Below, one piece after another: positions 8,978-62,642 of a DNA stretch of 64,000 bases (positions are counted from its first letter, which is position 1; every line of letters begins with the position of its first letter). Both the position numbers and the translations under genes were made by a program. The notes beneath the pieces are model-generated. The model saw nothing but the letters and a program-made list of their open reading frames with translations. It was not told the DNA's origin and ran no database searches. The stretch lies in contig CAVYNH010000004.1 in assembly GCA_963769885.1 (NCBI GenBank), forward strand, positions 75,904 through 139,903, written 5' to 3'. Source of the DNA: Methanobacteriota archaeon (lineage in GTDB: Archaea > Thermoplasmatota > E2 > DHVEG-1).

Positions 8978-9232
8978 AATAATTCCTTTCTAGGATATCC
9001 AGTTGATATATGCTTTTTCCTTTTCATTCTTCTCGAAAAAGTTATACCCTCGCTAACAACTCTTTCAGACTAGAAATGTTTTAGGGCCCTATAAATTAAT
9101 CTAATTTTGATTTTATCAAGACGGTTAACAATGCAACTAATAAAAAGATTTTAATAGAACCTTTAGTTAAGAATCATGCATAGAGGCGCAGGATGACAAA
9201 AGATGACATACTACTGAAATGGGGATATTTTC
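8978..9232. promoter_or_regulatory. Divergent intergenic region between the OLD-family gene and the SbcD-like operon; candidate bidirectional promoter
   Basis: 255-bp AT-rich spacer with TATA-like ccctataaattaat near 9087-9100 and GGGGA RBS before ATG 9233. No experimental support. Confidence 0.25.
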
Positions 9233-10366
9233 ATGCCGATTAAGTTTCTACATACGGCTGACTGGCAAATGGGTATGAAAGCTCTTCAAGCTGGCGAGAA
9301 AGCAAAGGAGGTTCGTGTTAAGCGTTTTGAGACAGCGAAGCGAGTTATTGAATTGGCAAAAAATGAATCTGTTGATTTTGTCATTCTTGCTGGTGATTTA
9401 TTTGAGCATCATGATATTGATGAATTAGTTGTCCGGAAAACAGTGGATATTCTGAACAACTTCAATCCCATTCCAGTCTTTATACTGCCAGGTAATCATG
9501 ATCCTCTTGTTTCCGGCGGCATCTGGGATCGGCATAGCTGGCAGCAAGTTAAAGGTCATATTACACTACTTCGAGAGGCTAAAGAAACCTTGGTCTCGGA
9601 TCAGGTCGTCATTTATCCTTCGCCATTATCCCAGAAACAAAGTTCGACCGATCCGACAGAATGGATTCCAACCAGAACTCCTGGCGATAATCGTATTAGG
9701 ATTGGGATCGCGCACGGTTCTTTAAACATATTACCTGAGCGTACCAACTTTCCTATTGCAGCTGACCGTGCGGATAAATGTTCATTGGATTGTTTGGCTC
9801 TTGGAGATTGGCACAGTTTCCTACAACATGGTCGGACTGTCTATCCTGGTACTATGGAGCAGACAAGCTTCACCGAAAAAGATTCGGGAAACGTTGCAAT
9901 AGTAGAGATTAAGAAAGTGGGTAATGAGCCGATTGTTTTTAAAAAACATATTGGACAATTCCTTTGGAGCGAGCATCAACCAACTATTCAGGACAAAACC
10001 GATGTTGATGGTTTTCGTGCCTTACTCTTGAAACAAGCATCGCTTTCCAACCAACTACTTAGGATAGCACCGATAATCACTCCAGAAGCCTCTTCAGACG
10101 CTATATCCGAACTAAAAATACTTCGAGATGAGCTGTTTGAAGAATCATTCTTTCTCAACTGGCCAGATGAAATGTTTAATACCACCCTTGATACCTCAGC
10201 GCCCTTACCGGACGGACTACTATCTAATGTGGATATTGACTTCGCAAACATTCTCAATCACCGGATTCCAGATGGACCTGGCCAGGAGTTCGCATCAGCT
10301 GACTTAACAGTGGTCCTTGAGGCACGAACTCTTCTCAGACGAATTGCAAAAGAGGGGGCAAAATGA
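9233..10366 (+). CDS. SbcD/Mre11-like calcineurin-type metallophosphoesterase (nuclease subunit-like)
   Basis: Motifs FLHTADWQMG (motif I with Gln where SbcD has His), ILAGDLFEH, LPGNHD, IAHGSL, GDWH; stop overlaps start of downstream gene (ATGA at 10363-10366). Confidence 0.75.
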   Translation: MPIKFLHTADWQMGMKALQAGEKAKEVRVKRFETAKRVIELAKNESVDFVILAGDLFEHHDIDELVVRKTVDILNNFNPIPVFILPGNHDPLVSGGIWDRHSWQQVKGHITLLREAKETLVSDQVVIYPSPLSQKQSSTDPTEWIPTRTPGDNRIRIGIAHGSLNILPERTNFPIAADRADKCSLDCLALGDWHSFLQHGRTVYPGTMEQTSFTEKDSGNVAIVEIKKVGNEPIVFKKHIGQFLWSEHQPTIQDKTDVDGFRALLLKQASLSNQLLRIAPIITPEASSDAISELKILRDELFEESFFLNWPDEMFNTTLDTSAPLPDGLLSNVDIDFANILNHRIPDGPGQEFASADLTVVLEARTLLRRIAKEGAK

Positions 10367-20023: not shown

Positions 20024-20909
20024 CCGGTTTTACCTCAAGAAATAGAATGGTCGGGTTGTTTTTGATGGTTTGGGTAGTTCCTTCGATAGACTTAAAAGAA
20101 AGGATGGTTAATAGGTAGTGAGGTGAGAAGATTTCTCCTGAACCAACAAATGCTGAAATAATAGCCAAGCTTGAAAGAATTGAATGGAAAGCAGGGCGTT
20201 CTTGGTTGATTGCCTGGGTCTTCGGAGGGTTTGCGCTCGTCGTCGCCGGATCCAGGTTCCTGAAAGACTATACAGCCTATTCATTCATGTGGGGTTATAC
20301 GCTCCTAATTACATGCCTTGGAGTTATCATCATGGCTGCTGCCTTTATTGGATGGATTTGGCATTACCGAAAAAAACCACAGGAACCACATTGCCCACTT
20401 ACAGAGAGATCGAACAAATTATAAAGAAGAATCCCTCTCTGAATTATAGAGGATTTTTGATGGATGAAAGTAAGGGGTTCAAATCCTGGGATGATTATTT
20501 TTCCTATTGGGAGAAGAAAGTTCAGGATCTTCGAAAGGAGATGTTGTCACCTGATGCTTGCGGTATGATTTTATCAACTTTCCACACCGGCTTTGGCGTG
20601 TTGACGGTGTTGTGTCATTGCTCTGAAGAAAAAATGACGGGTTATTATCTGAAGTATGACCGTTGAACAGCAAACTTGATGTTGCTTTATCCCTTGCCAG
20701 AACAAAATATATGGACGAACATCCTCCGCTTACGGAGAAATTTATTGAAGCCCTTGGGAATTTGATAAGACAAAGGACAATATCAAAAAAACCGTGACAA
20801 GGCTTGATCCGACTTGTTTCGTAGAATATGAATCTATGGATTAATATTTGGTGTTTCAGCGGGATGCCAATCGATATCAAAAGTAGGGAAGCAGCCCGGT
20901 GGATTCGTG

Positions 20910-21189
20910 GTGCTCGTACCCGCTCCAGAAGGCAACCGCGTGGGTAGCGTTTGCGGAACCCGGGGTGTGCCTCGAACATCCTCTTAGCGCTGTGGGATTT
21001 TAGCATGGTCTCAGCGGCTTGGATGGAGTACCGCTTGGGGACGTTGACCTGGAAGAGGATGTGGTCTTCGGCGAAGCCGAGTTCGCCGAAGCCAAACCCG
21101 TGGTGTTCCAGATCGTGGAACGCCTGGGTGCAGATGTCGATGTGGCTTTGTCTGCTGAAGCAGTGGTAGCGGTTTTTGGTCACAAACAT
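20910..21189 (-). pseudogene. Degenerate IS200-like TnpA (HuH Y1 transposase) remnant
   Basis: Inside track ORF 20479..21366(-): NRYHCFSRQ...GELGFAEDHILFQVNVPKRYSIQAAETMLKSHSAKRMFEAHPGFRKRY resembles TnpA (YHC...PDHVHLLVSIPPK...LKG.SAR.LF.EFP) but HVH is HIL and the Tyr region is lost; GC-rich. Confidence 0.35.
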
Positions 21190-21452
21190 CGTGGTCACCC
21201 AGTTGTTGCGGGTGTCACCCGCAATCTTTTTAGAGCTGCCGCTCGATACCATCTCCATAAATGTATTTTCTCCTGTCGCGCCTTTACAGGGGGCAGGCGG
21301 ACGCCTGCCCGCGCGCGACAAAAAACAGTATATCGAGTGTTTTGGGAAAAAGATGGCGTCTTTCATCAGCGAGTCTTCACTGCGGTTCAGACCGCATAGT
21401 ATTCCCAGTCCAGCAAAGAACCCAAAGAGATGGAACCAACAAAGAGAGCTGG

Positions 21453-24597: not shown

Positions 24598-26580
24598 ATG
24601 AAAAAAAGACGCTTTAGTGTAGTAATAATATTGATGCTGGTCCTGTCAACGACGACCCTAATTTACTTAAACAACCCAATAACGAAAGCAGGCACACAAA
24701 ATTGGTTTCCACTGATTCCGGATGGGTTTGGAAAGGCTTCAAACGTGGCGACACGAGGCATGGCTATCTTCAAAGGTGATCTCTACGTCGGCACTCAAAA
24801 CAATAATCCTATCCTCCATAATCTAGAACTCGGTGGTTTCCCTGCAAGCACACTCATCTTGATGGCGGATGGCTCTTCCAAAACTGTTGAACAAATCAGG
24901 GTTGGGGACATGGTGAAAGCCTATGATTTCGATAGTAACGTCTTCACCAGAGCCAGGGTAACTTCATTAATGCAGACCTCTCTTCAAGATATATCCAGCC
25001 TCATCGTAATCAACAACAAAGTCACTGCAAGCCCGTATCAACTCTTTTCTGTCGGCGATACCTTGAATATCGCTGAGAATCTCAGAATCGGTGACCGTCT
25101 AGTAGATAGCCATGGATTAGCCGCCCCGATAACCTCAACATCTCAAATCACCAACCTCGGAAAAGTATATAGTTTCACTATGACGGTGAATATATCACAA
25201 CTCGGCAGCCTTGCATTCTATGCTAACAATATCCAGGTGTATCCCTGGGTTCCGAATCAGCCTGCACAACCGTATGGACTGCAGGGTGGGCAAGAGGGAC
25301 GAGATGGGGAATGCATCGACTCACTGTTCCCATTACTCAAAGGATTGGGGAACTGGACTGCGACAAAGATATGCAATGTAGGAATTGATCTTATCGCAGC
25401 GTCTAGTGACGGTGGTGAACTATGGAAATATAATGCAACCCAACAACACCCCTGGACGCCAATCATCGGGAACACCAGCAGGATACACTCTGGGTTCAAC
25501 CACACTACGAACTGGGTGATAACCGCTCCAACGGTGTTTACGAACAATACTAACATGACTCACCTTTACGTTGGTACATGGCGATCAAGAATCCCCCTCG
25601 ACCAACCGTTAGTTGGCGGCTGTCAGATATGGCGATTCGATGGGACGACATGGCAAGAAGTCGTCTTCGCTGGATTCGGCGATGCCTACAATGTCGGTGT
25701 CATGACCATGGCGGTCTTCAATAACACCCTCTACGCGGGTACGTTGAACTTCAACTGGATGTCGAACGGATTCACGCAAATCTGGCGGACTGTGGATGGT
25801 GTGAATTGGAATAAGGTCGTCGATCGAGGATTCCGAGATGTGCAGCCGGTAGGGGGCTTCAAGAATGCATATACTTGGAGTATGGGCGTGTTCCAAAACC
25901 AGCTCTACGCTGGGACATTCAATATCCCCGTCGGTGATAATAGTACGCAGGGCTGCCAGCTCTATCGAACCTCTACTGGTAATCCGAGTGATTGGACCCT
26001 AGTACCCATCAATGGTTCAGCGTATGGCATCGGAGAACAAACGATATTCTATGGCATTCGGAACTTAATAAATTATAACAACCAATATTTCTACGTTGGC
26101 GTCACCGCCAGTTTCTTGCAACGGAAACTGCAAAACCATCCCGATCCCAAGGGGCTTGAGATCTGGAGGTACGCAGGAGGAACCAGTTGGACTTGTATGG
26201 CGGGGGACAAGGCGACGAACAACCCTAACTCCACTAGCTACTGTGGTTTCGGCAATTACTATAATAAATACCCCTGGTCGATGGCTCTGTGTGGTGGCAA
26301 GCTCTGGGTAGGGACCGCAAATACACAAGAACTAGCGAATTGGTCTTCGATTACCCAAGGAGGCGAAGTCTGGCGGCTAGATAATACAACATGGACGCAG
26401 GTTGTAGGAAACCGATCAGGCGCTGAAATGCCGAGCGGGTTTGATGAATTGTTAAATTGGGCCATGCGGTCGATGATTGAGTACCCCAAGGACAGCGGAC
26501 AGCTCATCGTGGGAACCTACAGTGATCAGACCTACACGAATCCTCCGGAAGCCTGCGAGATCTGGATCCGGTATCCATAA
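24598..26580 (+). CDS. Secreted repeat (beta-propeller-like) protein with an embedded Hint-like domain lacking catalytic residues
   Basis: AGGAGGGAG RBS; N-terminal hydrophobic signal; residues ~78-220 GGFPASTLILMADGSSKTVEQIRVGDMVKAYD...KVYSFTMTVNISQLGSLAFYANNIQVYPW follow Hint block order; remainder has repeated LY(V/A)GT...C(Q/E)IWR..G..W units. Confidence 0.6.
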   Translation: MKKRRFSVVIILMLVLSTTTLIYLNNPITKAGTQNWFPLIPDGFGKASNVATRGMAIFKGDLYVGTQNNNPILHNLELGGFPASTLILMADGSSKTVEQIRVGDMVKAYDFDSNVFTRARVTSLMQTSLQDISSLIVINNKVTASPYQLFSVGDTLNIAENLRIGDRLVDSHGLAAPITSTSQITNLGKVYSFTMTVNISQLGSLAFYANNIQVYPWVPNQPAQPYGLQGGQEGRDGECIDSLFPLLKGLGNWTATKICNVGIDLIAASSDGGELWKYNATQQHPWTPIIGNTSRIHSGFNHTTNWVITAPTVFTNNTNMTHLYVGTWRSRIPLDQPLVGGCQIWRFDGTTWQEVVFAGFGDAYNVGVMTMAVFNNTLYAGTLNFNWMSNGFTQIWRTVDGVNWNKVVDRGFRDVQPVGGFKNAYTWSMGVFQNQLYAGTFNIPVGDNSTQGCQLYRTSTGNPSDWTLVPINGSAYGIGEQTIFYGIRNLINYNNQYFYVGVTASFLQRKLQNHPDPKGLEIWRYAGGTSWTCMAGDKATNNPNSTSYCGFGNYYNKYPWSMALCGGKLWVGTANTQELANWSSITQGGEVWRLDNTTWTQVVGNRSGAEMPSGFDELLNWAMRSMIEYPKDSGQLIVGTYSDQTYTNPPEACEIWIRYP

Positions 26581-26963: not shown

Positions 26964-29900
26964 CTACAGGCCGCTGACGCTGAACACAAACGCGGAGACG
27001 AGATGATGCTGGTCGCTGTCGATGAGGACGTTCCCCTGCTGGTCGCAGAATGCCGCATAGACCCGATATTGCCCATTCCCATGTCTGAGGTCATCGGTTT
27101 TCACAAGGCCATGGAAGATGCTGTCAAGGGCCAACAGCCCGCCGCTTTGAATGAGCCGCGGGGTTTGCTCGTCAACCGCCTTCGTATCCAGCATCCATTG
27201 TCCAGTCCGCGGGTCCTGGAACTCCACCTGGATCAGGAGGTAGCCCCGGATGTCCGTGATCCCAGTGTTCTTGATCTTCGACTGGTTCCGGCACTGCACG
27301 ACCAACCGAGGCTGGCATCCAATCCCCTGGAACTCATAGGAGGAGATAGCGACGTATTCATTCCCGGTCGGCGTGGTCCCGCTGATGTCCCTGCTGCTAC
27401 GTAGGCAGAGTTTTGTCACTCCGATCCGATTGATCCAGCCGAGCCCCTGGCTGTTGAGGGAGAGATCGTTGAACCCGTTGACGAAGTTATTAGTGTTGAA
27501 CTGCCCGCCGTTCCCTGAATACAGGCTCTTGTCGTAATCCGTGACGATGAGAGGATTATGGGGATAGGTCGGCTGTCCGTTCTGGACCGTGATCAGGAAG
27601 TCTGTCGTCGAGTAGTCACCCATTTTATAGAGGCCTAGTGTGGCGGCGTCGATGATGGCGTTCGACGGGATTCGTGTCGTGTCGAAGAAGAGGAATCCTC
27701 GGTAAAGGGAGTATGGTCCGAACGGTGGATTGAATTTTTGCCCGATGAGGATGGAGGCGCCAGTGTTGTCGACGGTGCCTCGGGTGCTTGTCCACGCGGT
27801 GTTGTAATTCGTGTTCGAGTTGTAGATATAGCCATCCGTTGCTTGGGAGTAGAGCGTGATGCTGGGATCGACCTCGGGGAATGCGTCGGTCAGTTCAATG
27901 ACCTCTCCTTTGGTGTACGAGGTTTTGAGCGTACCGACGCTAAGGGTCGCATGGGCGGCGATGTCGAAGTAGAATCCGGTCGCGGTTTGCTCGTTGCCGA
28001 GGTTATCGACGGCCCTGACGCTCACGGGATATCGCCCGGTGAGCCAGGTGTCGTTGAAGTAGCACTCGTATCTGTTCGGGACGCCAGTGACGAGGGTCAT
28101 TGGGATCTGTGTTTCTTTCATTTGTTGGGATTGGTTCGGTAACTGGATTGCTGCTGTTGCTGCCTTCACGCCGCTGATGTTATCCATGATGGTGGCTTGG
28201 ATGTGGATTTGTGAGCCGAAGCCACTCAGTGAGGGCGTGACCAAGACTGACGTGATGTACGGTCCGTCGGCGTCGAACGTGGCATGGTGGGTCTCGGTGG
28301 AGCTTTGATTGCCCTGGATGTCGATGGCGTGGGCGGAGAAGGTGTAGGTGCCGGAGAGTCCGGTGAAGGTGTGGGCGAGCTTGTGGACGCTGTTGTTGTA
28401 GGAGGCTTGGATTTCTTCCCAGCTTAATGCCCTGGCGTAGAGCTGCGGCTCGTCGAGGAGGCCGCGGAAATGGTGGTACTCCGCCGTGTTCTCTTCTGAG
28501 AGGCAGGTCTCCTGGTTGTTTGTGATGTCGCGGACGGTGCCGGTGGTGCTCTGGTCGAATTCGCCGTCGACGTAGAGTCGAAGCTCGGTGCCCTGCCGGA
28601 CGTAGGCGATGTGATGCCATGCCTCGGCGGTGATGGGGATGGTTCCGGTGAGGCTGGTGGTTTGGCCTGGGAGTGATCCTTGCGAGGTGAAGATGCGTGC
28701 GTATGAATTGGAGATGCCGCAGTAGTATCCCTGGCCGGTGGCTTCAGGCTGGTTGCTCAGGATGATGCGGATGCTTGGGGGCTCGAAGGAGACGGGGACG
28801 TTCACCCACGTCATGAAGGTGAAGTCGCCTGTTCCTAAGTTCAGGCTAGGGTCTTTTCCGCAGTGGACCGCATCGTCGATGCCGTCAAAGTCTAATGCCT
28901 TTCCGAATTTCCCGGTGACAATATCGGATGGCCCAAGGCCTCCCCAGAAGACCCCGTTGTTGTGATACGTCGAGTCGTCAATCACACTGGTATCGTTGTA
29001 GTCGTCCATGGGCCAGTAGCCGCGGAGGGTTCTGTTCCAGTCGATGAACGCCGCTGTCTGGAGGCCGTCCTCGACGGTGGCGTTCACTTGTGCCCAGCTC
29101 TGGTTGATCATCGCGTTATCTGGCGGTGTGGGCGGGACAAAGTAGATGATGGGGGTGGGCGTGACCGTGAAGTTGAACTCGTTTGAGTAGTTGGTGTTGT
29201 TCGCGTTGTCGACGGCCCATACCCGGCCTCTGTATTCGCCGCTCTGCTGGGTGTCGGAGAAGGTGAGGAAGTAGCTGTCGTTGATGATGTGGGTCATGGG
29301 GTATTCAGCCGTCGAGTTGTCGGGGGCGGTGATGTTGACCCAGGCGGTGTTGATGCCGCTGTCGTTGTCGGCGATCACTGCCGCTATTGAGGCGTTCATG
29401 CCGACGCCGACGACTTCCGGCGTGACGTCGAGGTACGTGATCTTCGGCGGGGTCATCTCGAAGGTGATGTTGAGCTGTTTTGTTATGGAGTGGAGTTGGT
29501 GTGTATCATCGGTCACGGTCAGCGTGACGTTGTATTGGCCTACGTTTTCATAGAAGTGGGTCACGTTTCGACCATTGGTGATGTTTCCATCCCCGAAATT
29601 CCACGTCCAATCGGTGATATGGAGGCCGTCGCAGGCGGCCGAGGTGTCATTGAAGACGATGGGGTAATCCGGGTTAACGTAGGGGTAGTTCGGGACGCTG
29701 AGGTTGTAGCTAACGTTGAGCGGCATGACCGAGACGTTGACTGAAATCTCCTCTATGTAGTTATTCGCATCCGAGACCCTGAGACGAACGACGTTGTCGT
29801 CTCCGGCTCTTTCGAAGTGATGGACCAGGGTCTGTTCATGGTGGGGGATCAGCTCGTTGTTTATGGTCCACTCATAGTCGACGGGGGCAATCGCGCCGGC

Positions 29901-32828
29901 TACCTGCGCGGCATAGATGGAGTCGATACCGACGACGGACGGCATCGAGGTCGCTCCGAGCACGCTCTGTGCGGATGCCGCTGCGGAACAGGACATCAAC
30001 AGATCCAACGAGAACTTGACCGTGACCGTGAACGGATCGGAGAATACACTCCAGTTTCCGTATCGGCTGACGCCAGGCATGGCTCCATCGAAGAGATACC
30101 CTTTGAAGTCCTCGCGGGCTCTCACCACGATCGTGCGCGATCCCGCCCAATGGTAGACGTGGGATGCGTCGCATGGGTGGTCTTCAACGATCGGCCCGAC
30201 GCGATCATTGTCATTTGTCCACTCATAGTTCCAGTACCATTGATATTGTAATGGGTCTCCTTCGTCATCATCGGTCCCGGTTGAACTGAATGTGGCTTTC
30301 TCTCCGGCATGGACGGTGGTCGGGCCGGTAATGTCCCCTGGCTTGTTGGGGTCGACATTGCTGCGCTTATCTAAATGAACGAAAGGAACCTGCGTCGCGA
30401 TATCATTCGGGCGACTGGTTTCATCCCTGATAATATTGTCAATTCGTCCGGAGGAATTGTACAGCTCGAGGTGGAGTTTATACCAGCCGGCGTTCACCCC
30501 ATTTACCGGCGGCAGCGTCATCGTGATCGTCTTCTGAACGCCGTCGGAGGTCGCTTCGAAATCAAAGTATTTCCACGTGACGTCCTGGCAATCGTCATTT
30601 AGGAGGCTGGCTTTGATTCTCACCTTGTCTGAGGGGAGGGTGGATGTCACGGTGAGCGTCGCCTGAATAGAGTCATCCTTTCCATCCTGATCGATGTCAA
30701 CAACGTTAAAAGTCACCGGTCCGTCGAACTCGCAGTCGGGGTTCAGCATGTAATATTTGAAGATATCCCAGATCAATTCCGTAGAGGCGACGACGTCGCT
30801 GTGATCGATGTATTGCATGCTGTCGCCGTCGGTATAGTTGTCGCCGGCTCGATGCCATTGATCCCAGGAGTATCCGATATATTTTGGTTTGCCAAAAATG
30901 TTCTTGCCGACGACGCTGTCACCCTTGAACAGACAGGTCGTATTTGCTTGGGGAAATGTAGCATTGACCGTCCCCTGTTCTGATCCAAAACCAGATCCAG
31001 CTCTGACCCAGCAATCGTAATTCGAATAGCCGCTCTCTTTTCGAATGGTATCCAATGTTTTTTCTCTCTCTTTTTCTGTTGTGAAAATCGACACTCCGCA
31101 GTTCTTCTGGTTAAAGCCGAGTTGGTCGAGGATCAGCCAATGTACTAGGGTATTACCCAGACTACCTGAATGATTGTCGACGTAGTGTCGAGCGCCTTGG
31201 AATCCGTGTTCCTCCGCCGTTGTGAAAAGGAACGTGAGGTTGTATTTTGGTTTGATGGAGGGATGGTCTTTGACGTATTTTGCTATGGTGAGGACGATTG
31301 CGCACCCGACTCCGGAGTCGCCGGGTGTCTGTCCCCACATGCCGTCGTACCTATTTGAGAAGATCCCAACAGCGTTACCGGGGCTTCCGCCGGGAATCGA
31401 GATGTTGGCATAGACGTCGTCCCCTATCGTCCCTGGATGTCCCGGCGTCTCTTCGAGGTAATCCTGTCTTGCATCGCCGGTAAGAGTCGTGGTGTCATGA
31501 TTCTCGCTTAAGAAATCGCCAGCCGTGTAATTTAACGTCAGTATTGGCAGCATATAGGTAGAATTTTTTTCGGTATTTTGATCGACAACAAAATGGTAGT
31601 CATGCGAATCATATAAAATAACAGCTGTGCAATTGAGTGCCGGACAATTGATGAAATTAAAGAATTGTGTGACGAGTGTGGCAGCAAATAAGACATGAGC
31701 AAAACTTACTTTGGCATGGATGGCTTCGTCCTGGTGGGTGGGGAAATTCACGAGGGTTTCACCTAATGCGATCGTCTTGTATAATGGGTGACTATACCAT
31801 GTCACATTCAACAGTTCACTGTGATCCGGGATTCTACAAAGGAGAACAAATGGCTGGTACGCGGGATAAATACCAAGGAAATCATAACGGAAGGTCAGAT
31901 CCGTCATGAAGTCTCCAAAGTTATCTACTAAGACGACAGGGTAGCTTGACAGGCGTTCTTTCACCTCGTTCCCAGATTCGTTATCAATCCAAAGAACGGG
32001 GTAACAACAATTTGAGGTATCAGTAATGTATTCGATTCCTTGATCATTGTAGTCAACGATGATGACCGCTGTTGCGTCAGTGATGGTATCCAGCTTTGCC
32101 TGCGCTCCTGGCAGATCGTCAATCAGGAAGACGCGGTCAATCATATAGTCTGGTGGGCAAGGATCGTCGGGTCCTATGTAATGAACAATTCCGAAGATCA
32201 CTTTGAAAATATAGTCAGTCAATTTCCCGAATTCACGAACGGTGTAGGAGCCTCTCCCTCCAAATAATTTTCCGAGCTCAAAGGGGACGATCTTGGTATT
32301 ATCGAAGACATAATGCTTTGTCCAATTTTCGCTTCGCGAAGCGGCATTGTCTTTACTTGCTTCTATTGTGTTTTTATAGGGGATATATCCGATTTCCTTC
32401 CGTGAAATAGGATTCATGAATGGGTACGTCGGTGCTCCAGGATCTGTGTTGACGCTCAAGTGAAAATCGGTGTCGTTGATGATGCATGAATAGTTTCTAT
32501 GCGCTTCATTGATGTAGGCAAGTCGCTCTGTTTTTACATTCCCCTGGCCGAACATGGTTTCAAGTCGAGGCACCAGTATTTCATTTGCAGTGTATATTCC
32601 TCCTTTTGAGTCAAAGTTCCTTCCCTTGGGGATATCAGTTTGGTTGTATGCATCGTATATCACATTGGTCAGATTCCCTAACACTTCCCAGAGATAATCA
32701 TAGTCGAGGCCTTCTGGCACAGCCACGGCTTTTGAGACGCTGTTCTTTGGGTCGAATTTGGTTACCATTAGACTGGTTGCCACGAGCATCAAACAGACTA
32801 CTAGTCCGAAAAATTTCCTACTTACCAT
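26964..32828 (-). CDS. Giant secreted multidomain surface protein (M28-peptidase-like, PKD-like and LamG-like domains; many N-glycosylation sequons)
   Basis: 1954 aa; GGAGG RBS; signal peptide MVSRKFFGLVVCLMLVATSLMV; FLFTTAEEHGFQGARHYV (M28-like EE motif); WNFGDGNITNGRNVTHFY and YQWYWNYEW (PKD-like); LRGYWPMDDYNDTSVIDDSTYHNNG...LRLYVDGEF (LamG-like). Confidence 0.8.
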   Translation of the reverse strand: MVSRKFFGLVVCLMLVATSLMVTKFDPKNSVSKAVAVPEGLDYDYLWEVLGNLTNVIYDAYNQTDIPKGRNFDSKGGIYTANEILVPRLETMFGQGNVKTERLAYINEAHRNYSCIINDTDFHLSVNTDPGAPTYPFMNPISRKEIGYIPYKNTIEASKDNAASRSENWTKHYVFDNTKIVPFELGKLFGGRGSYTVREFGKLTDYIFKVIFGIVHYIGPDDPCPPDYMIDRVFLIDDLPGAQAKLDTITDATAVIIVDYNDQGIEYITDTSNCCYPVLWIDNESGNEVKERLSSYPVVLVDNFGDFMTDLTFRYDFLGIYPAYQPFVLLCRIPDHSELLNVTWYSHPLYKTIALGETLVNFPTHQDEAIHAKVSFAHVLFAATLVTQFFNFINCPALNCTAVILYDSHDYHFVVDQNTEKNSTYMLPILTLNYTAGDFLSENHDTTTLTGDARQDYLEETPGHPGTIGDDVYANISIPGGSPGNAVGIFSNRYDGMWGQTPGDSGVGCAIVLTIAKYVKDHPSIKPKYNLTFLFTTAEEHGFQGARHYVDNHSGSLGNTLVHWLILDQLGFNQKNCGVSIFTTEKEREKTLDTIRKESGYSNYDCWVRAGSGFGSEQGTVNATFPQANTTCLFKGDSVVGKNIFGKPKYIGYSWDQWHRAGDNYTDGDSMQYIDHSDVVASTELIWDIFKYYMLNPDCEFDGPVTFNVVDIDQDGKDDSIQATLTVTSTLPSDKVRIKASLLNDDCQDVTWKYFDFEATSDGVQKTITMTLPPVNGVNAGWYKLHLELYNSSGRIDNIIRDETSRPNDIATQVPFVHLDKRSNVDPNKPGDITGPTTVHAGEKATFSSTGTDDDEGDPLQYQWYWNYEWTNDNDRVGPIVEDHPCDASHVYHWAGSRTIVVRAREDFKGYLFDGAMPGVSRYGNWSVFSDPFTVTVKFSLDLLMSCSAAASAQSVLGATSMPSVVGIDSIYAAQVAGAIAPVDYEWTINNELIPHHEQTLVHHFERAGDDNVVRLRVSDANNYIEEISVNVSVMPLNVSYNLSVPNYPYVNPDYPIVFNDTSAACDGLHITDWTWNFGDGNITNGRNVTHFYENVGQYNVTLTVTDDTHQLHSITKQLNITFEMTPPKITYLDVTPEVVGVGMNASIAAVIADNDSGINTAWVNITAPDNSTAEYPMTHIINDSYFLTFSDTQQSGEYRGRVWAVDNANNTNYSNEFNFTVTPTPIIYFVPPTPPDNAMINQSWAQVNATVEDGLQTAAFIDWNRTLRGYWPMDDYNDTSVIDDSTYHNNGVFWGGLGPSDIVTGKFGKALDFDGIDDAVHCGKDPSLNLGTGDFTFMTWVNVPVSFEPPSIRIILSNQPEATGQGYYCGISNSYARIFTSQGSLPGQTTSLTGTIPITAEAWHHIAYVRQGTELRLYVDGEFDQSTTGTVRDITNNQETCLSEENTAEYHHFRGLLDEPQLYARALSWEEIQASYNNSVHKLAHTFTGLSGTYTFSAHAIDIQGNQSSTETHHATFDADGPYITSVLVTPSLSGFGSQIHIQATIMDNISGVKAATAAIQLPNQSQQMKETQIPMTLVTGVPNRYECYFNDTWLTGRYPVSVRAVDNLGNEQTATGFYFDIAAHATLSVGTLKTSYTKGEVIELTDAFPEVDPSITLYSQATDGYIYNSNTNYNTAWTSTRGTVDNTGASILIGQKFNPPFGPYSLYRGFLFFDTTRIPSNAIIDAATLGLYKMGDYSTTDFLITVQNGQPTYPHNPLIVTDYDKSLYSGNGGQFNTNNFVNGFNDLSLNSQGLGWINRIGVTKLCLRSSRDISGTTPTGNEYVAISSYEFQGIGCQPRLVVQCRNQSKIKNTGITDIRGYLLIQVEFQDPRTGQWMLDTKAVDEQTPRLIQSGGLLALDSIFHGLVKTDDLRHGNGQYRVYAAFCDQQGNVLIDSDQHHLVSAFVFSVSGL

Positions 32829-33807: not shown

Positions 33808-35229
33808 TTATATGGGATTATTATACTGAACAAGCATGAAAGGAGTATTAATTTCCTCTTTCATGCCCCATAATTCAACCGAACCACTTAATGTTCTTAT
33901 CTGATTTACGACTTTTTGTACAATTTGTGGATCATCCTCTTGAACTAAACGCGCTTTAATTAAAAGAATCCAGATAGTCTTAACAATGTTTTTAAGAGGA
34001 GATGTCGTTAAATCAACCAATTCTTCAAAACTATCTACCAAAGTCCTCCGATCCTTCTCCCGAATGGCTGCGGGAATAGAAGTTACTCCTGCTGAGAGTG
34101 TATTAATAATTTCACGTCTTCTACCTTTGCGTTTAAGTTCTTCTAATAATTTATCCGAAAAAGTCCCAAATGCGCTGTGTAAGTCTATAGTATTTTTTTT
34201 ATACATCTTTATAGGATCTTTTTGAAAAGAATATGTATGCCATGTTCTATTCATAACTTCAATTATATTCCCTCTCAGCATTTTCTCTTCTTCGGTAACT
34301 TCTTTGTCATGCTTTCGAATCTCAATAACCAAATTTACCGCTTGCTTAACCTCCCACTTTTGCATGGGTATTTGAACTATTTTTGCTGCATGAACAGTTT
34401 CAGTTTCGCTACTTCCGAAGGGAAATGCCGGCGCTAATATTTTTCCATCTTCGTCTGTTAATTGTAAATCATCATCAATGGCCATCATAGTAAAACCTCC
34501 TCGACTGTATATCTTTGGGGCCACAATATAATGCAAAGTCCTGGCAGTTCTGTAAGCTGTCAAAGGTGAATTATTTAATGAATTCTCTATCCGCTCAACA
34601 TTATGATTTAACCCATAAAGTTCCTGCCATTTAACCCTTTCAGCAATAAAAAAAGGAAGTCTACTCAAGTCTTGAATCAGTGGATTTTCCTGTTTTTTAA
34701 TATTATACTCTTCTCTTGCATGCTTATCAAATCCATTAATTCTCAATTGATACTCTTTAGATTTTTCAGATACTTCTCTTTGAAACTCAAGATCACCATC
34801 CAAACGTGCATCCTCAAATAATTGAGCACGAATAAGAGGCTTATCTTTAGGAAGTTCTTTAATAAACTTATCAAAGATATCCTTTTGATAACTTTCAAGG
34901 CTATTTCCAATAATAGGTACGAGTAAATCCGCTTTTATTAACTCCAATACTTGATCTAAAGATGCACCACAATAATTAAAAAATTCATCATCACTCCGAT
35001 AAGGTGGTAAATACATAATAACTTTGTCTAAAAAGACTGGATAGAGCCATACTGGAATGAAATTACCTGTATACGCAGGTTTATCTCCCCTTCTATAATA
35101 AGTGTCGAGATTCCCTAATTCATAATATGGTAAAAATATACTACGAGGTTCTTTCTTTTCTTCCAACTGATCGATACTGAAAATTGTTTTCTCCTTAATA
35201 AGTTCCTCAAAGCTGCTCATTTCCTCCAC
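33808..35229 (-). CDS. Hypothetical protein (473 aa), overlapping-coupled to the upstream DUF692-like gene
   Basis: Track ORF; start overlaps end of 35217..35939 by 13 nt; no motif recognised. Confidence 0.5.
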   Translation of the reverse strand: MEEMSSFEELIKEKTIFSIDQLEEKKEPRSIFLPYYELGNLDTYYRRGDKPAYTGNFIPVWLYPVFLDKVIMYLPPYRSDDEFFNYCGASLDQVLELIKADLLVPIIGNSLESYQKDIFDKFIKELPKDKPLIRAQLFEDARLDGDLEFQREVSEKSKEYQLRINGFDKHAREEYNIKKQENPLIQDLSRLPFFIAERVKWQELYGLNHNVERIENSLNNSPLTAYRTARTLHYIVAPKIYSRGGFTMMAIDDDLQLTDEDGKILAPAFPFGSSETETVHAAKIVQIPMQKWEVKQAVNLVIEIRKHDKEVTEEEKMLRGNIIEVMNRTWHTYSFQKDPIKMYKKNTIDLHSAFGTFSDKLLEELKRKGRRREIINTLSAGVTSIPAAIREKDRRTLVDSFEELVDLTTSPLKNIVKTIWILLIKARLVQEDDPQIVQKVVNQIRTLSGSVELWGMKEEINTPFMLVQYNNPI

Positions 35230-35939
35230 CCCTTAATCATATTTAATTGTTCAACAATATCTTTTTCTGATTCTATGTTTAATATCAATTCTTTATTTAA
35301 ATTTTTTTCTAAAATAAGTTTAAGTATTTTTTCCGCATCATTAGAATAATAAAAAGGTTCATTTATATCATACCAAACTCCATCCTTCCGTAACGGAGAA
35401 TTCACGTGAATCTCATAAATCAAATCAATTCCTATCCTTTTCACGAAATCAACAGTATCTATCTTAAACTCACAAGCAGAAATCATCGTATGTGCGATAT
35501 CGAGCAAAATTCCACATCTTGTTTTCCTTGCTATTTTTGAAATAAATTCATACTCACAAACAAATTCATAGGCTCCAGTAGGATGATAGTCCAAGTTCTC
35601 CACTAAAATCATTCCTTTATAACCTTCTTCGCCTAATACATCTTTGACTATATTCAACGACTCGGAAATGCTTTTGAAAATTTCGCCCATTGATAGAGTT
35701 TCTCCTATAGCAAAATTATGTTTGTCTATCCCCTTCATTCCAACTATTTTAGATGAGAAACCGAGATGAAAAGAAATTACAAAAGGCTGTAAAATTTTAT
35801 AAATCTTGTAAATGGAAGAACCACTATCCTTTAACATCTCCTTAACTTCGTCTGAAACCAGATTTAACGTTACGCTCTTATTATGCTCGTGGAGATATTG
35901 AACATGCATTGAAATTGGAAACTTCCTTAAGATTTCCAT
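35217..35939 (-). CDS. Xylose-isomerase-like TIM-barrel protein, DUF692-like (MbnB/MNIO-type) candidate
   Basis: FHLGFSSKIVG, ILVENLDYHPTGAYEF, CGILLDIAHTMISA, EIHVNS follow the order of recalled DUF692 blocks (HGVSLS / ENxSSY / CxLLLDVNN / HLAGH); N-terminus shorter than typical. Confidence 0.45.
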   Translation of the reverse strand: MEILRKFPISMHVQYLHEHNKSVTLNLVSDEVKEMLKDSGSSIYKIYKILQPFVISFHLGFSSKIVGMKGIDKHNFAIGETLSMGEIFKSISESLNIVKDVLGEEGYKGMILVENLDYHPTGAYEFVCEYEFISKIARKTRCGILLDIAHTMISACEFKIDTVDFVKRIGIDLIYEIHVNSPLRKDGVWYDINEPFYYSNDAEKILKLILEKNLNKELILNIESEKDIVEQLNMIKGWRK

Positions 35940-36055: not shown

Positions 36056-36727
36056 TTATATCTCCACCATCCTATGAACAATAAATGCTTCCGCATATTG
36101 AACTTTGGCTTGAAATCCTCTGAAAATAGCTTTTGAAACTATCACTTTTTTATTCATATATGGTTTCCCTGCTTGTGTTTTATGCAGTTTAATAGCCTCA
36201 ATTTTCTTTTGTACATATGCTGTGGTGTCTACAAAATAATTAGGTGAAAATGAAGTTCTCGTCGTTGGTGATTCATAAAACAGCATTGTTTTTATTCTTC
36301 TTGCTGCATGAAGGCTGATAAGCGATGTGTTAACATGATCCAAATGATCGTCTTCAAAATGATGAGTGTAGATTGCGTCTGGGTTTACTTCCATTATGTG
36401 CTTATACACATCCTCAATAACCTTTTTGTTAATTTTAATCCCATTGTCTGGAAGCCCGAGAATTTTTATATTTTCTTTTTTTACTCCAAGAAGCTTTAAG
36501 GCATTTTTTGTTTCATTTTCTCGCGTTCGTCCTTTCAGAACATTTCTCTGTTTTTCATCCAACTCCCCTCTATCCTCAAGTTTGTCATCGCTTACACCTT
36601 TTTCGCCTCTCGAAAGTATCAAGATACACATATCATCTCCATTTTCTGCATGCTTTGCTAAACAGCCACCTAATCCAAGTTCTACATCATCAGGATGAGC
36701 CCCAATAGCCAAGATTTTAATTGACAT
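36056..36727 (-). CDS. PIG-L/LmbE-family deacetylase
   Basis: ILAIGAHPDDVELGLGG and HHFEDDHLDH motifs. Confidence 0.7.
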   Translation of the reverse strand: MSIKILAIGAHPDDVELGLGGCLAKHAENGDDMCILILSRGEKGVSDDKLEDRGELDEKQRNVLKGRTRENETKNALKLLGVKKENIKILGLPDNGIKINKKVIEDVYKHIMEVNPDAIYTHHFEDDHLDHVNTSLISLHAARRIKTMLFYESPTTRTSFSPNYFVDTTAYVQKKIEAIKLHKTQAGKPYMNKKVIVSKAIFRGFQAKVQYAEAFIVHRMVEI

Positions 36728-39698: not shown

Positions 39699-41561
39699 AT
39701 GATAAAAAACAATATATTGTATCGAAAAAAAGGCAAGTTCGCACCGCTGATCAAGATACTGGTTACCCTCTCCCTGATCTTATCTAGTAGCGTCATCGTC
39801 GCAACTCAAGGACACCCTCCTCCTATCAATAAATGGCGCCAACTCATAGGGAGCAGTAGCACAATTAATAAGGGCTTTAACAACAGCCATAACATTGCAA
39901 CCCGAGGGATTACCATCTACAAGAATGAACTGTATGTTGGTACAGAAAATCATTGCTTATCAAACTGGAAATCCATTTTTTTAAACTGGATATTAAATCA
40001 GACAGTCTTAACCCCGCAAAGTATCGTCCAATATATTCTCTCACAGCCACTATCGATGGATCCCGTGGTTCGGAGCATACAGAACCTCCTCCAAATCGAA
40101 CAGAGGCAAGGTCTCCTCAACCTTGATCCGACGCCTTTGAACAGCACTAGTTATGACGAACACTATTATTTTTCGCCTGATGGTGGTCAACATGTCTATT
40201 ATCTTGATCCAGAGGTCTTTGGCATGAGTGGTGTCCCCGATATACTCCTTGGGTTAGCGAAAGGCATGACGAACGGCACAAATGTCCTGCGGGTACTACT
40301 TCATCTTGGAGCCTTATGTAGCGATGGATGTGATCTCTGGAAATATAATAGCTCCACCGGAGCATGGACACACGTTGTGGGTAAGAACTCAACCACGGGA
40401 ATGGGCGCTGGATTTAACTATCAGTCTAACTTCTGTGTCGGCGTCATGAAAGAGTTCAAAAATAAACTCTATGTGGGAACCTGGAATACTCCAGGGTGTG
40501 GCCCGCTGCTTGATGGCATATTCCATATTACCCGAAAAGGTTGTGAAATCTGGCGTTTTGATGGCACCAACTGGGAACAAGTCGTTGGATTAGACGCATA
40601 TAACAGAACCGGGCGGACATCAAACAATGGCGGGTTCGGCAACCCTGACAACATGGCCGCAGGTAGCATCGAAGAATATAACGGCTATCTGTACGTTGGG
40701 ACAATGAATTTTAATTTCACACAGACTGGTGCATGTGAAGTCTGGAGAACCAACGATGGTGAAAACTGGACGAAAGTAGTGGACCATGGGTTCCGACCGA
40801 ATATGACCATACCAGCAGACCCAGACCCAGACCTAAACAATGGCGTCACAAATACCTATGCCTGGGAGATGAGAAACTACTCGGGCAATCTGTATGTCGG
40901 GACGGGTAATTCTCACGCCCCATTCGGTATCCTTAGGAATGGTACCGGGTGTCAACTATGGAAATCAAGTAATGGTATCACTTGGACAAAAGTTTCGCTT
41001 CCGAATGGGACTCACCCAGGGCATCGTGATGGGTTTGGTGAATGGTCGACTGACGGGATTCGACGGATGGGCGTTTACAACGGGTTACTGTATATTGGAA
41101 CTGCGACTAATGTGCTCGCCAAAACCCAAGCATGTGAAGTCTGGAGTTACGATGGAACGAACGGGCCGAACGCCTGGCATAACCTCATTGGTGAGAAAGC
41201 ATATAACGAGCACCATAACAATGCAAATTATAGTGATGGTTTCGGAAATACATCTAATAAATATGTCTGGGGTATGACGGTTGCAACAGATGGCATCTGG
41301 ATGGGCGCAGCAAAAGGCGGCGGCTGCCAGGTGTTCCGGTACAACGGAACAGGCTGGTACGTCAGTGTTCGGACCCGTGATGGTGAAATATCTGATGGGT
41401 TCGGAGATACGTGGAACTCAGCAGCCCGCTCAATGATCGAATACCCTAAAGGGACAGGGACGATCATTGCAGGGACGTTTACTGCCATTTATAATTGGGA
41501 CAAAACCAAACATGGGTTTGGTCCTGAAGTCGGCTGTGAAATCTGGAAACGGTCTCCTTAA
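39699..41561 (+). CDS. Secreted repeat (beta-propeller-like) protein, paralog of 24598..26580 without the Hint-like insert
   Basis: Signal-like N-terminus; repeated LYVGT...GCE(I/V)WR..G..W units; shared N-terminal ATRG(M/I)(A/T)I(F/Y)K..LYVGT motif with 24598..26580. Confidence 0.6.
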   Translation: MIKNNILYRKKGKFAPLIKILVTLSLILSSSVIVATQGHPPPINKWRQLIGSSSTINKGFNNSHNIATRGITIYKNELYVGTENHCLSNWKSIFLNWILNQTVLTPQSIVQYILSQPLSMDPVVRSIQNLLQIEQRQGLLNLDPTPLNSTSYDEHYYFSPDGGQHVYYLDPEVFGMSGVPDILLGLAKGMTNGTNVLRVLLHLGALCSDGCDLWKYNSSTGAWTHVVGKNSTTGMGAGFNYQSNFCVGVMKEFKNKLYVGTWNTPGCGPLLDGIFHITRKGCEIWRFDGTNWEQVVGLDAYNRTGRTSNNGGFGNPDNMAAGSIEEYNGYLYVGTMNFNFTQTGACEVWRTNDGENWTKVVDHGFRPNMTIPADPDPDLNNGVTNTYAWEMRNYSGNLYVGTGNSHAPFGILRNGTGCQLWKSSNGITWTKVSLPNGTHPGHRDGFGEWSTDGIRRMGVYNGLLYIGTATNVLAKTQACEVWSYDGTNGPNAWHNLIGEKAYNEHHNNANYSDGFGNTSNKYVWGMTVATDGIWMGAAKGGGCQVFRYNGTGWYVSVRTRDGEISDGFGDTWNSAARSMIEYPKGTGTIIAGTFTAIYNWDKTKHGFGPEVGCEIWKRSP

Positions 41562-60850: not shown

Positions 60851-62092
60851 ATGACCTTCCCTAAGCCCCCGGAAGTCAACATCGGCATGATCGGCCACGT
60901 CGACCACGGGAAAACCACACTGACACAGCGGCTCACCGGGAAATGGACTGACGTCCACTCTGAGGAAATAAAACGCGGCATCTCAATCCGCCTCGGCTAC
61001 GCGGACGCCGCCTTCTACAAATGCCCACACTGCGAACGACCCCAATGCTACACGACCCAGAAAACCTGCCCGCACACCAACGAACCCACGGAACTGCTCC
61101 GCGTCGTCTCCTTCGTCGACGCCCCCGGCCATGAGACCCTCATGGCCACCATGCTGTCCGGCGCGGCAATCATGGACGGCGCCATCCTCGTCATCGCCGC
61201 CAACGAGCCCTGCCCGCAGCCGCAGACTCGCGAGCACCTCATGGCCCTCGAGATCGTGGGCACCAAGAACATCATCATTGTCCAAAACAAGATTGACCTC
61301 GTCTCCGAGGCCGACGCGAAGAAGAACTACGAGCAAATCAAAGCCTTCGTGAAAGGCACCTGCGCAGAGAACGCGCCAATCATCCCCGTCAGCGCGCATC
61401 ATGATATCAACATCGACGCCCTCATCCAGACCATCGAGACTGTTATTCCTACACCGAAACGGAACTTCAACAAGCCCCCGTTGATGCACGTCGCACGAAG
61501 CTTCGACATCAACAAACCCGGCATCAAACCCAGCGAGCTTCACGGCGGCGTTGTCGGCGGCACCCTCATCCAGGGGACCCTCCTAATCGGGGAAAAGATT
61601 GAGATTGCGCCCGGCCGTAAGATCGAGGCCGAGGGCAAGTCGCATCTCGAGCCGATCTACACGACGGTCAGCTCCCTTGTCACTGGAGGAGAACCCGTGG
61701 ACAAGGCGCTGCCTGGCGGACTCTTGGCGATTGGGACGGAGCTGGACCCGGGGCTGGTGAAGTCGGATTCGTTCGCCGGCAAAGTCGTGGGGCGCCCCGG
61801 GGAACTGCCGCCGGTGGTCGACACCCTGACGCTGACGATGTGCCTGCTGAAGCGGGTCGTCGGCACAATCGACGAGAAAAGCGTCGAGCCATTGAAGACG
61901 AACGAGCCGTTGATGCTGACGGTCGGGACGGCGACAACGGTTGGTATTATCTCTGATTTGCGCAGCGACTGGATTAAGGTTCGGCTGAAGCTTGCCGTCT
62001 GCGCCGATAAGGGGCAGCGGATCGCGGTAAGTCGGCGTATTGAGGGGAAATGGCATTTGATCGGGTACGCGGAGATCAAGGCTACCGGGTAG
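60851..62092 (+). CDS. eif2g: Translation initiation factor 2 subunit gamma (aIF2-gamma)
   Basis: G1 motif [10 protein letters not shown], zinc-ribbon [30 protein letters not shown]; starts 1 nt after rps6e stop. Confidence 0.85.
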
Positions 62093-62521: not shown

Positions 62522-62642
62522 GTCGGGGTGGCTCAGCCTGGCCAGAGCGCCTGACTCATAAGCGTAGCTTGAAAGGTTCGTACAATCGTTTCGGGCGAGC
62601 GAAGACATCTGGAGGTCGCGGGTTCAACTCCCGCCCCCGACA
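62522..62642 (+). tRNA. Intron-containing tRNA with CAT anticodon (Met or Ile2), ~45-nt intron
   Basis: Acceptor GTCGGGG/CCCCGAC, D-arm GCTC-AGCCTGGCCA-GAGC, anticodon loop CTCATAA, T-arm GCGGG-TTCAACT-CCCGC, discriminator A; ~45 extra nt after the anticodon loop. The 3' anticodon stem has a U-U mismatch in my fold, so the intron boundaries are uncertain. Confidence 0.5.

What the first reader, a model, noticed from the sequence alone, without database searches (positions are those of the whole stretch)
24829..25260. Hint-like domain with all catalytic positions substituted, embedded in a secreted repeat protein
The segment GGFPASTLILMADGSSKTVEQIRVGDMVKAYD ... KVTASPYQLFSV ... KVYSFTMTVNISQLGSLAFYANNIQVYPW follows Hint block order (A, B, F, G). 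It has Gly where the nucleophilic Cys/Ser is expected, no His in block B, and YP instead of terminal HN. The paralog at 39699-41561 lacks this insert. It looks like a Hint fold retained as a structural module or a decayed autoprocessing domain.
Basis: partly seen in the sequence, partly recalled or inferred. Interest (0 to 1): 0.55.

Follow-up and report, generated by a model that had tools for sequence, protein, structure and literature searches.

The report
Catalytically dead Hint domain in propeller
An archaeal cell-surface beta-propeller protein carries, in one of its loops, a well-conserved self-cleaving 'Hint/intein-like' domain that has lost every residue needed for self-cleavage, so it most likely stays in the protein as an ordinary structural or binding module.

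Summary

This is not fresh decay. Eleven genes, including two Thermoplasmatales-type genomes, carry the same Gly1/Tyr-Pro domain at the same loop of blade 1 of the same propeller family. They form one clade (93% bootstrap). The Hint is 42% identical among them, against 50% for the propeller and 23% for the adjacent linker. The replaced residues are themselves fixed.

Best reading: a BIL-type Hint domain that entered a variable loop of a secreted archaeal propeller, lost autoprocessing, and is kept as a non-catalytic module. I rate it a new variant of a known kind, of moderate interest. What the module does, and that the protein truly stays uncleaved, are inferred and not shown.

The parts
24598..26580 (+). 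Host gene: 660-aa secreted/surface beta-propeller-like repeat protein (repeat signature GFG..N..LYVGT..GCEIWRYDG.W)
   Evidence: ORF list. 291 homologs, the closest named ones from Thermoplasmatales/Thermoplasmatota MAGs. Repeat structure visible in self- and paralog alignments.
24598..24690 (+). N-terminal signal peptide or membrane anchor (MKKRRFSVVIILMLVLSTTTLIYLNNPITKA)
   Evidence: Sequence read directly. Inferred from the basic n-region plus an 18-residue hydrophobic core; no predictor was run.
24703..24813 (+). First half of propeller blade 1 (W..L..DGFG..N.ATRG..I....LYVGTQNNN), just upstream of the insert
   Evidence: Aligned with all family members, with or without the insert.
24835..25245 (+). 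Hint domain, aa 80-216, all catalytic positions replaced
24835..24876 (+). Block A, GFPASTLILMADGS; Gly80 occupies the Cys1 position
   Evidence: 255 of 289 relatives' domains have Cys here. 9/9 sequences of the clade have Gly against 60/60 Cys in canonical domains.
25018..25053 (+). Block B, KVTASPYQLFSV; Ser145/Gln148 replace Thr/His of TxxH
   Evidence: Alignments. Ser is fixed in the clade. Gln148 is shared by most orthologs; P0003 and P0145 have His here.
25162..25188 (+). Block F first strand, KVYSFTMTV (canonical TYNLEVE)
   Evidence: Alignment A2 and catalytic-only profile alignment.
25207..25245 (+). Block F/G end, SLAFYANNIQVYP: Leu205 for the block-F His, Tyr215-Pro216 for the terminal His-Asn; the next residue (+1) is Trp217
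   Evidence: Tyr-Pro in 9/9 of the clade against His-Asn in 97% of canonical domains; +1 is Trp in 89% of the clade.
25246..25383 (+). Poorly conserved linker plus a short segment (..ECIDSLFPLLKGL..IDLIAASSDG) leading back into blade 1
   Evidence: 23% mean identity among orthologs. The second half aligns with insert-less family members.
25384..26577 (+). Remaining propeller blades
   Evidence: 36% identity over 473 aa to the paralog; family alignment.
39699..41561 (+). Paralog of the same propeller family, with an unrelated filler of about 100 aa at the same loop and no Hint
   Evidence: P0023 is its ortholog with the same filler.
26964..32828 (-). Convergent neighbour: 1954-aa secreted M28-peptidase/PKD/LamG protein. 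Its C-terminal ~310 aa are homologous to the module fused directly upstream of the Hint-propeller in P0123 and related orthologs.
   Evidence: Pfam scan. 53% identity, E=1e-90, to P0123 aa 451-767.

Best explanation
Residues 80-216 are a genuine Hint (Hedgehog/intein) domain of the bacterial-intein-like / pretoxin type. It sits in a variable loop of blade 1 of a secreted archaeal beta-propeller protein. In the ancestor of one clade of these propellers the domain lost all of its autoprocessing chemistry: the Cys1 nucleophile, the block-B His, the block-F His, the terminal His-Asn and any +1 nucleophile. Without a nucleophile there can be no N-S acyl shift, and without a terminal Asn there can be no succinimide formation. 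The polypeptide is therefore neither cleaved nor spliced, and the Hint stays in the mature protein. Because the two ends of a Hint fold lie next to each other, it can sit in a loop as a plug-in domain without disturbing the propeller. It is kept by purifying selection as a non-catalytic module (a pseudo-enzyme domain), most plausibly a structural, adhesive or ligand-binding surface on the propeller. Shown here: the fold, the homology, the loss of every catalytic residue, the common origin and the conservation. Inferred: that no cleavage occurs, and what the module does.
Against: No experiment shows that the protein is uncleaved. The structural model was built with an alignment of Hint homologs, so it is not independent of the sequence similarity. 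I could not model the full protein (single-sequence AF2 failed), so how the Hint packs on the propeller is unknown. No positive evidence identifies a ligand or partner. The query itself scores below Pfam gathering cut-offs for all Hint families, although two orthologs pass PT-HINT. P0003 and P0145 keep a block-B His, and three orthologs have a Cys two residues upstream of Gly1, so some residual or alternative chemistry in some members is not strictly excluded.
Confidence: 0.7

Rival explanations
1. Neutral remnant: a BIL or mini-intein that inserted in the loop, lost activity, and is simply tolerated while it decays, with no function of its own.
For: The insertion site is a loop that tolerates very different inserts or none. 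The Hint is somewhat less conserved than the propeller, 42% against 50%.
Against: The domain is retained intact in all 11 genes seen, across lineages only 34-61% identical in the Hint region. It is nearly twice as conserved as the adjacent linker. The replaced catalytic positions are fixed (Gly 9/9, Tyr-Pro 9/9) instead of drifting. AF2 predicts a compact, confident fold.
Confidence: 0.12
2. Pro-domain or processed insert: the Hint does not cleave itself but is removed, or the chain is nicked at its borders, by another protease after secretion. One candidate is the neighbouring M28 peptidase protein. The Hint would then act as a folding or secretion aid.
For: The neighbour is a large secreted peptidase-domain protein whose C-terminal module is fused to the Hint-propeller in orthologs. 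The linker after the Hint is poorly conserved and Gly/Gln/Pro-rich.
Against: There is no conserved cleavage motif at either border beyond G-F and Y-P-W. Removing the insert would break blade 1 into two chains. Nothing here tests the idea directly.
Confidence: 0.08
3. Non-canonical autoprocessing: the domain still cleaves or splices by chemistry that needs neither Cys/Ser/Thr at position 1 nor a terminal Asn.
For: Inteins are known that dispense with the position-1 nucleophile (class 2 and class 3), and BIL domains ligate without a +1 nucleophile (PMC7664689). The rest of the active-site scaffold is conserved.
Against: Class 2 needs a +1 Cys/Ser/Thr, and here +1 is Trp. Class 3 needs the block-F Cys of the WCT motif, and the domain has no Cys at all. 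The terminal Asn, both conserved His residues and the block-B Thr are all replaced. Pro at the last position is incompatible with succinimide formation.
Confidence: 0.04
4. Chance resemblance or a different fold: the block order is coincidental.
For: All Pfam Hint-clan hits on the query are below gathering thresholds.
Confidence: 0.01

Closest known systems
A-type bacterial intein-like (BIL) domains, e.g. Clostridium thermocellum BIL (PDB 2lwy) and Tetrahymena BUBL BIL2 (PDB 6tmm/6y75)
   Different: The query has Gly instead of Cys1 and Tyr-Pro instead of His-Asn, and it lacks both conserved His residues, so neither N- nor C-terminal cleavage is possible by the BIL mechanism. It is archaeal, and it is nested inside a propeller blade instead of lying between domains.
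Pretoxin HINT domains of polymorphic toxins (Pfam PF07591; e.g. the Hint of PDB 8w20)
   Same: PT-HINT is the only Pfam family on which any ortholog reaches its gathering cut-off (P0123 32.1 bits, P0003 31.2 bits; cut-off 27.7). Best PDB sequence hit, E=2.7e-5.
   Different: PT-HINT is a releasing peptidase placed just before a C-terminal toxin domain (PMC3482391). Here no toxin follows, the catalytic residues are absent, and the query itself scores below the cut-off.
B-type BIL and Hedgehog Hog domains (N-terminal cleavage only)
   Same: They lack the canonical C-terminal His-Asn motif, as the query does. Relatives with Cys1 + TPNH + 'YPLK' (P0178, P0234, P0238, P0243) look like this functional class.
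   Different: Those keep the Cys1 nucleophile and the block-B His; the query keeps neither. In the tree the Cys1/Tyr-Pro proteins are not the sister group of the query clade.
Class 1, 2 and 3 mini-inteins
   Different: The host site is variable, not conserved. There is no position-1 or +1 nucleophile, no terminal Asn and no block-F Cys. The domain is fixed in a clade and conserved as part of the host, not a mobile element.
Inactive intein in a pseudogene (Arthrobacter FB24 Arth_1007; PMC3196547)
   Same: A natural Hint/intein reported as inactive (title and abstract only).
   Different: That case is a decaying pseudogene. The present domain sits in an intact, conserved, apparently functional gene family.

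Membership tests
Hint (Hedgehog/intein) superfamily | Hint fold | tested here: met
Hint (Hedgehog/intein) superfamily | Sequence blocks A, B, F, G in order, with significant profile similarity | tested here: met
   End-to-end alignment to a catalytic-only profile, 79.7 bits. 1075 relatives at E<=1e-3. All 81 profile hits carry Hint-clan Pfam domains.
Class 1 intein | Cys/Ser/Thr at position 1 | tested here: not met
   Gly80.
Class 1 intein | Block-B TxxH, terminal His-Asn, and Cys/Ser/Thr at +1 | tested here: not met
   S-P-Y-Q; Tyr215-Pro216; Trp217.
Class 1 intein | Protein splicing (excision with ligation of the flanks) | not testable with these tools
   Needs expression and mass spectrometry.
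Class 2 intein | No position-1 nucleophile, but a +1 Cys/Ser/Thr that attacks the N-terminal junction, plus a terminal Asn | tested here: not met
   +1 is Trp and the terminal residue is Pro.
Class 3 intein | WCT motif with a nucleophilic Cys in block F | tested here: not met
   No Cys anywhere in aa 80-216.
A-type BIL domain | Located in a variable region of a non-conserved secreted protein, with no +1 nucleophile | tested here: met
   The loop carries different inserts across the family. +1 is Trp. Definition from PMC7765530.
A-type BIL domain | N-terminal Cys and conserved C-terminal His-Asn | tested here: not met
   Gly80 and Tyr-Pro.
B-type BIL / Hog-type Hint | N-terminal nucleophile and block-B His present, C-terminal motif absent (N-cleavage only) | tested here: not met
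   The C-terminal motif is absent, but so are the nucleophile and the His.
Pfam PT-HINT (PF07591) | Score at or above the gathering cut-off (27.7 bits) | tested here: not met
   Query scores 16.8 bits (whole protein) and 21.2 bits (segment). Orthologs P0123 (32.1) and P0003 (31.2) pass.
Pfam PT-HINT (PF07591) | Position immediately upstream of a C-terminal toxin domain, acting as a releasing peptidase | tested here: not met
   It is followed by propeller blades, and no toxin domain was found. Definition from PMC3482391.

The most novel reading that the evidence does not exclude
The domain is not merely a dead relic. It could be the founding example of a Hint fold that autoprocesses, or covalently attaches something, by chemistry independent of Cys1, the block-B and block-F His residues and the terminal Asn. 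A milder version: it is the first described 'pseudo-Hint' family, in which the former junction-binding cleft (now lined by Gly1, Leu, Tyr-Pro-Trp and, in 7 of the 10 orthologs readable at this position, an N-L-T glycosylation sequon) has been re-used as a specific binding or glycan-display site on archaeal cell surfaces.
Probability: 0.05. Interest if true: 0.85.

Novelty: new variant of a known kind. Interest (0 to 1): 0.42.

Why it matters
Hint domains are known almost entirely as single-turnover enzymes: inteins, Hedgehog, BIL and pretoxin peptidases. The usual assumed fate of an inactivated intein is loss of the host gene or of the element. Here a whole clade of archaeal surface proteins has kept a Hint whose active site was remodelled and then frozen. 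That would be a natural case of domestication of a self-processing element into an ordinary nested domain. It offers a ready test of which residues suffice to restore cleavage, using the five or six clade-specific changes listed. It also offers a natural non-cleaving Hint scaffold for loop insertion. Finally, it points to a large and little-described reservoir of BIL-like domains, including tandem arrays, in Thermoplasmatota and DPANN-type archaea. My searches of the available literature found no description of such a conserved non-catalytic Hint family, but that library is incomplete.

Tried and rejected
(1) The word-indexed homolog search with the Hint segment alone found nothing. The exhaustive search and a profile were needed.
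(2) AF2 on the full-length protein without an alignment failed (pLDDT 30.6) and is not used.
(3) A combined alignment of propeller homologs and stand-alone Hint proteins (A3) mis-placed the Hint proteins onto the propeller and was discarded. The Hint-only alignment A4 was checked by eye before use.
(4) I first read the relatives as an evolutionary series: Cys1/His-Asn, then Cys1/Tyr-Pro, then Gly1/Tyr-Pro. The tree does not place the Cys1/Tyr-Pro proteins as sister to the query clade. The series is therefore only descriptive, and His-Asn->Tyr-Pro may have happened more than once.
(5) Class 2 and class 3 intein mechanisms were considered and rejected from the sequence (+1 Trp; no Cys).
(6) I checked whether the paralog's filler is an even more decayed Hint; there is no signal.
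(7) dN/dS was not attempted, because the closest ortholog with DNA (L001) is only 47% identical in protein and synonymous sites would be saturated.
(8) The exact-match look-up of the query's own contig found no record, and the GTDB scan did not return the window's own genome. The taxon is therefore inferred from aIF-2 gamma, an intron-bearing tRNA and the nearest homologs.
(9) The AFDB fold library was unavailable.
(10) Literature searches for natural inactive or degenerate Hint domains returned only engineered mutants and one pseudogene intein.

Full report
WHAT IS THERE. It is aa 78-221 of a 660-aa ORF, 24598..26580(+). The protein starts with a basic-plus-hydrophobic leader and has 14 N-X-S/T sequons. 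It consists of repeats of the type GFG..N..LYVGT..GCEIWRYDG.W, i.e. a beta-propeller-like surface protein. It has 291 homologs, and the closest named ones come from Thermoplasmatales/Thermoplasmatota MAGs. The window is archaeal: it encodes aIF-2 gamma at 60851-62092 (662 bits) and an intron-containing tRNA at 62522-62642.

IS IT A HINT DOMAIN? Yes.
- Pfam gives only Hint-clan families on the segment (Hint, Hom_end_hint, PT-HINT, Vint, Hint_2), but all are below their gathering cut-offs.
- Against PDB sequences the best hits are the Hint of 8w20 (E=2.7e-5), the Tetrahymena BUBL BIL2 domain and the C. thermocellum BIL domain.
- The exhaustive search of 1.84 billion representatives gives 1075 relatives at E<=1e-3 and 87 at E<=1e-10, best 2.8e-30.
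- A profile containing the query finds 81 short proteins, nearly all of which carry precomputed Hint-clan Pfam domains.
- As a control against circularity I built a profile from 12 relatives that all have Cys1 and a terminal His-Asn. It aligns the query from the Cys column to the His of 'HN' (aa 80-215) with 79.7 bits. The paralog gives nothing even with filters off.
- An AlphaFold2 model of aa 71-231, using a hand-checked alignment of 55 sequences, has pLDDT 88.2 and pTM 0.84.

ARE THE CATALYTIC POSITIONS REALLY GONE? Yes, and in register. Among the domains of the top 150 relatives, position 1 is Cys in 255, Gly in 23 and Ser in 9. Alignment A2 and a comparison with 60 canonical domains give:
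- Cys1 -> Gly80.
- Block-B T-P-x-H -> S-P-Y-Q.
- A Trp after block B that is 92% conserved -> Leu156.
- Block-F His -> Leu205.
- Terminal His-Asn -> Tyr215-Pro216.
- +1 Lys -> Trp217.
The domain contains no Cys and a single His at a non-catalytic position. This excludes the class 1 route. It also excludes the class 2 route, which needs a +1 nucleophile, and the class 3 route, which needs a block-F Cys (mechanisms as summarised in PMC7664689).

DECAY OR RETENTION? Retention.
- Three full-coverage homologs (P0001, P0002, P0003), four more from the exhaustive search (P0123, P0145, P0174, P0175) and three loci in two Thermoplasmatales-type genomes (L002, L003, L004) carry a Hint at the same loop of blade 1.
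- Every one of them has Gly at position 1 where that end is present. All have S-P-x-Q (His in P0003 and P0145), and [VA]-Y-P-[WL] where that end is present (L004 breaks off at a contig end before it).
- No ortholog retains Cys.
- With the catalytic columns masked, the nine full-length sequences form one clade at 93% bootstrap.
- Mean pairwise identity within the group is 42.4% for the Hint, 49.9% for the propeller and 22.8% for the linker that follows the Hint.
- The clade-specific fixed differences from canonical relatives are confined to the former active site, apart from Pro132; the rest of the domain is unchanged.
This pattern indicates a remodelled and then constrained site, not a drifting one.

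CONTEXT.
- The insertion point is a variable loop. The paralog 39699..41561 and its ortholog P0023 have an unrelated ~100-aa filler there. P0004 has two CarboxypepD_reg domains. P0006 has a short loop.
- That is the typical setting of BIL domains, which are described as lying in hypervariable regions of non-conserved secreted proteins (PMC7765530).
- Active-looking relatives (Cys1 ... [VA]-His-Asn) occur in many archaeal MAGs, some as tandem arrays joined by 'VHNK(G)C'.
- In several orthologs (P0123, P0174, P0003, P0145, L002, L003) the Hint-propeller is preceded by a long N-terminal region. The part of P0123 that immediately precedes it is 53% identical (E=1e-90) to the C-terminus of the 1954-aa M28/PKD/LamG protein encoded next door in the window (26964..32828, minus strand).

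MECHANISM. Shown: a Hint fold, homology to BIL/pretoxin Hints, loss of all residues used in any known Hint chemistry, single origin, and purifying selection. Inferred: the chain is not cleaved, and the Hint remains as a nested domain. This is possible because the ends of a Hint fold are adjacent (established knowledge of the fold; not measured on the model). Also inferred: it serves a structural or binding role on the propeller surface. I put 0.7 on this overall reading. The rivals are a functionless tolerated remnant (0.12), removal or nicking by another protease (0.08), non-canonical self-processing (0.04) and chance resemblance (0.01).

COMPARISON WITH KNOWN FAMILIES. It works like none of the catalytic Hint families. 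By descent it belongs to the Hint superfamily and is nearest to A-type BIL / PT-HINT domains. It fails the defining catalytic features of inteins (all three classes) and of A-type and B-type BILs. It also fails the PT-HINT context (a following toxin; PMC3482391) and the PT-HINT score cut-off, although two orthologs pass that cut-off. Relatives with Cys1 + TPNH but 'YPLK' in place of His-Asn are C-terminal domains of secreted clostripain-like or PKD proteins. They resemble the query in the Tyr-Pro ending but are not its sister group, so the apparent three-step series is descriptive only.

NOVELTY AND SCORE. Pseudo-enzyme domains are common, and individual Hint sequences lacking catalytic residues surely exist unremarked in databases. 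What is new is a conserved clade-wide non-catalytic Hint, nested in a propeller blade, in archaea. I found no description of this in the searchable literature. I rate it a new variant of a known kind, interest 0.42.

Noticed in passing
window 26964-32828 (-) versus P0123 aa 451-767 (also P0003, P0145, P0174, L002, L003): The C-terminal ~310 aa of the neighbouring 1954-aa M28-peptidase/PKD/LamG surface protein are 53% identical (E=1e-90) to the module fused directly upstream of the Hint-propeller in P0123. The other long orthologs carry N-terminal extensions that look similar by eye but were not compared. This split-versus-fused arrangement suggests the two adjacent window genes work together.
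   Followed up: partly
P0178, P0238 (Peptidase_C11 + Hint), P0234, P0229 (PKD + Hint), P0243: Secreted proteins ending in a Hint that keeps Cys1 and block-B TPNH but has 'YPLK' (or 'FTKK') in place of His-Asn; most are followed by a short tail, Ser/Gln-rich in P0234 and P0238. This is a Hedgehog-like layout that predicts N-terminal cleavage or transfer only. The acceptor, if any, is unknown.
   Followed up: partly
L070 (Nanoarchaeota MAG) ORF aa 70-674; L023 (Thermoplasmatales MAG); P0131, P0129, P0141, P0157: Head-to-tail arrays of 3 to 7 Hint domains joined by 'VHNK(G)C' junctions, each with intact Cys1 and His-Asn. They resemble BIL arrays and occur in archaeal as well as unassigned metagenomic proteins.
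   Followed up: partly
P0148, P0155, P0160, P0184, P0197, P0205, P0214, P0188 (second Hint of two-Hint proteins): A separate set of proteins pairs a Cys1 Hint with a downstream Hint that starts with Gly ('..dhkdhG[FM]..GT.....DGR'). This suggests Gly1 variants arose independently elsewhere.
   Followed up: no
orthologs of window aa 203-206 (P0002, P0003, P0123, P0145, P0174, P0175, L003): The position of the lost block-F His lies in a conserved N-L-T sequon in 7 of the 10 orthologs readable at this position (not in the query, P0001 or L002; L004 breaks off earlier). It could be an N-glycosylation site in the former active-site cleft.
   Followed up: no
same loop of blade 1 in P0004, P0006, P0023 and window 39699-41561: The loop that holds the Hint is a hot spot for unrelated inserts across the propeller family: two CarboxypepD_reg domains in P0004, a ~100-aa filler in the paralog and P0023, and a short loop in P0006.
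   Followed up: partly
window 35217-35939 (-) and 33808-35229 (-): An MbnB/TglH/ChrH-like RiPP-modification enzyme homolog sits next to an unannotated 473-aa ORF whose stop overlaps it, and close to a PIG-L deacetylase (36056-36727). This may be a small peptide-modification cluster.
   Followed up: no
window 7028-16239 and 20479-21366: An AAA/RecF-like ATPase with weak hits to anti-phage effector models (7028-8977), then weak, sub-threshold Mre11/SbcD-like (9233-10366) and Rad50/SMC-like (10363-13053) N-terminal matches, then an IS110-family transposase (13302-14279). An IS200-like Y1 transposase lies at 20479-21366. Together these suggest a mobile or defence-rich stretch.
   Followed up: no
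window 62522-62642 (+): A tRNA match of 121 nt that ARAGORN in bacterial mode missed. It is presumably an intron-containing archaeal tRNA, just downstream of the aIF-2 gamma gene.
   Followed up: no
L001 (contig of P0001): The closest ortholog is flanked by NosD/beta-helix surface proteins and a DDE transposase. The Hint-propeller genes therefore sit among other secreted repeat proteins, without conserved gene order.
   Followed up: no
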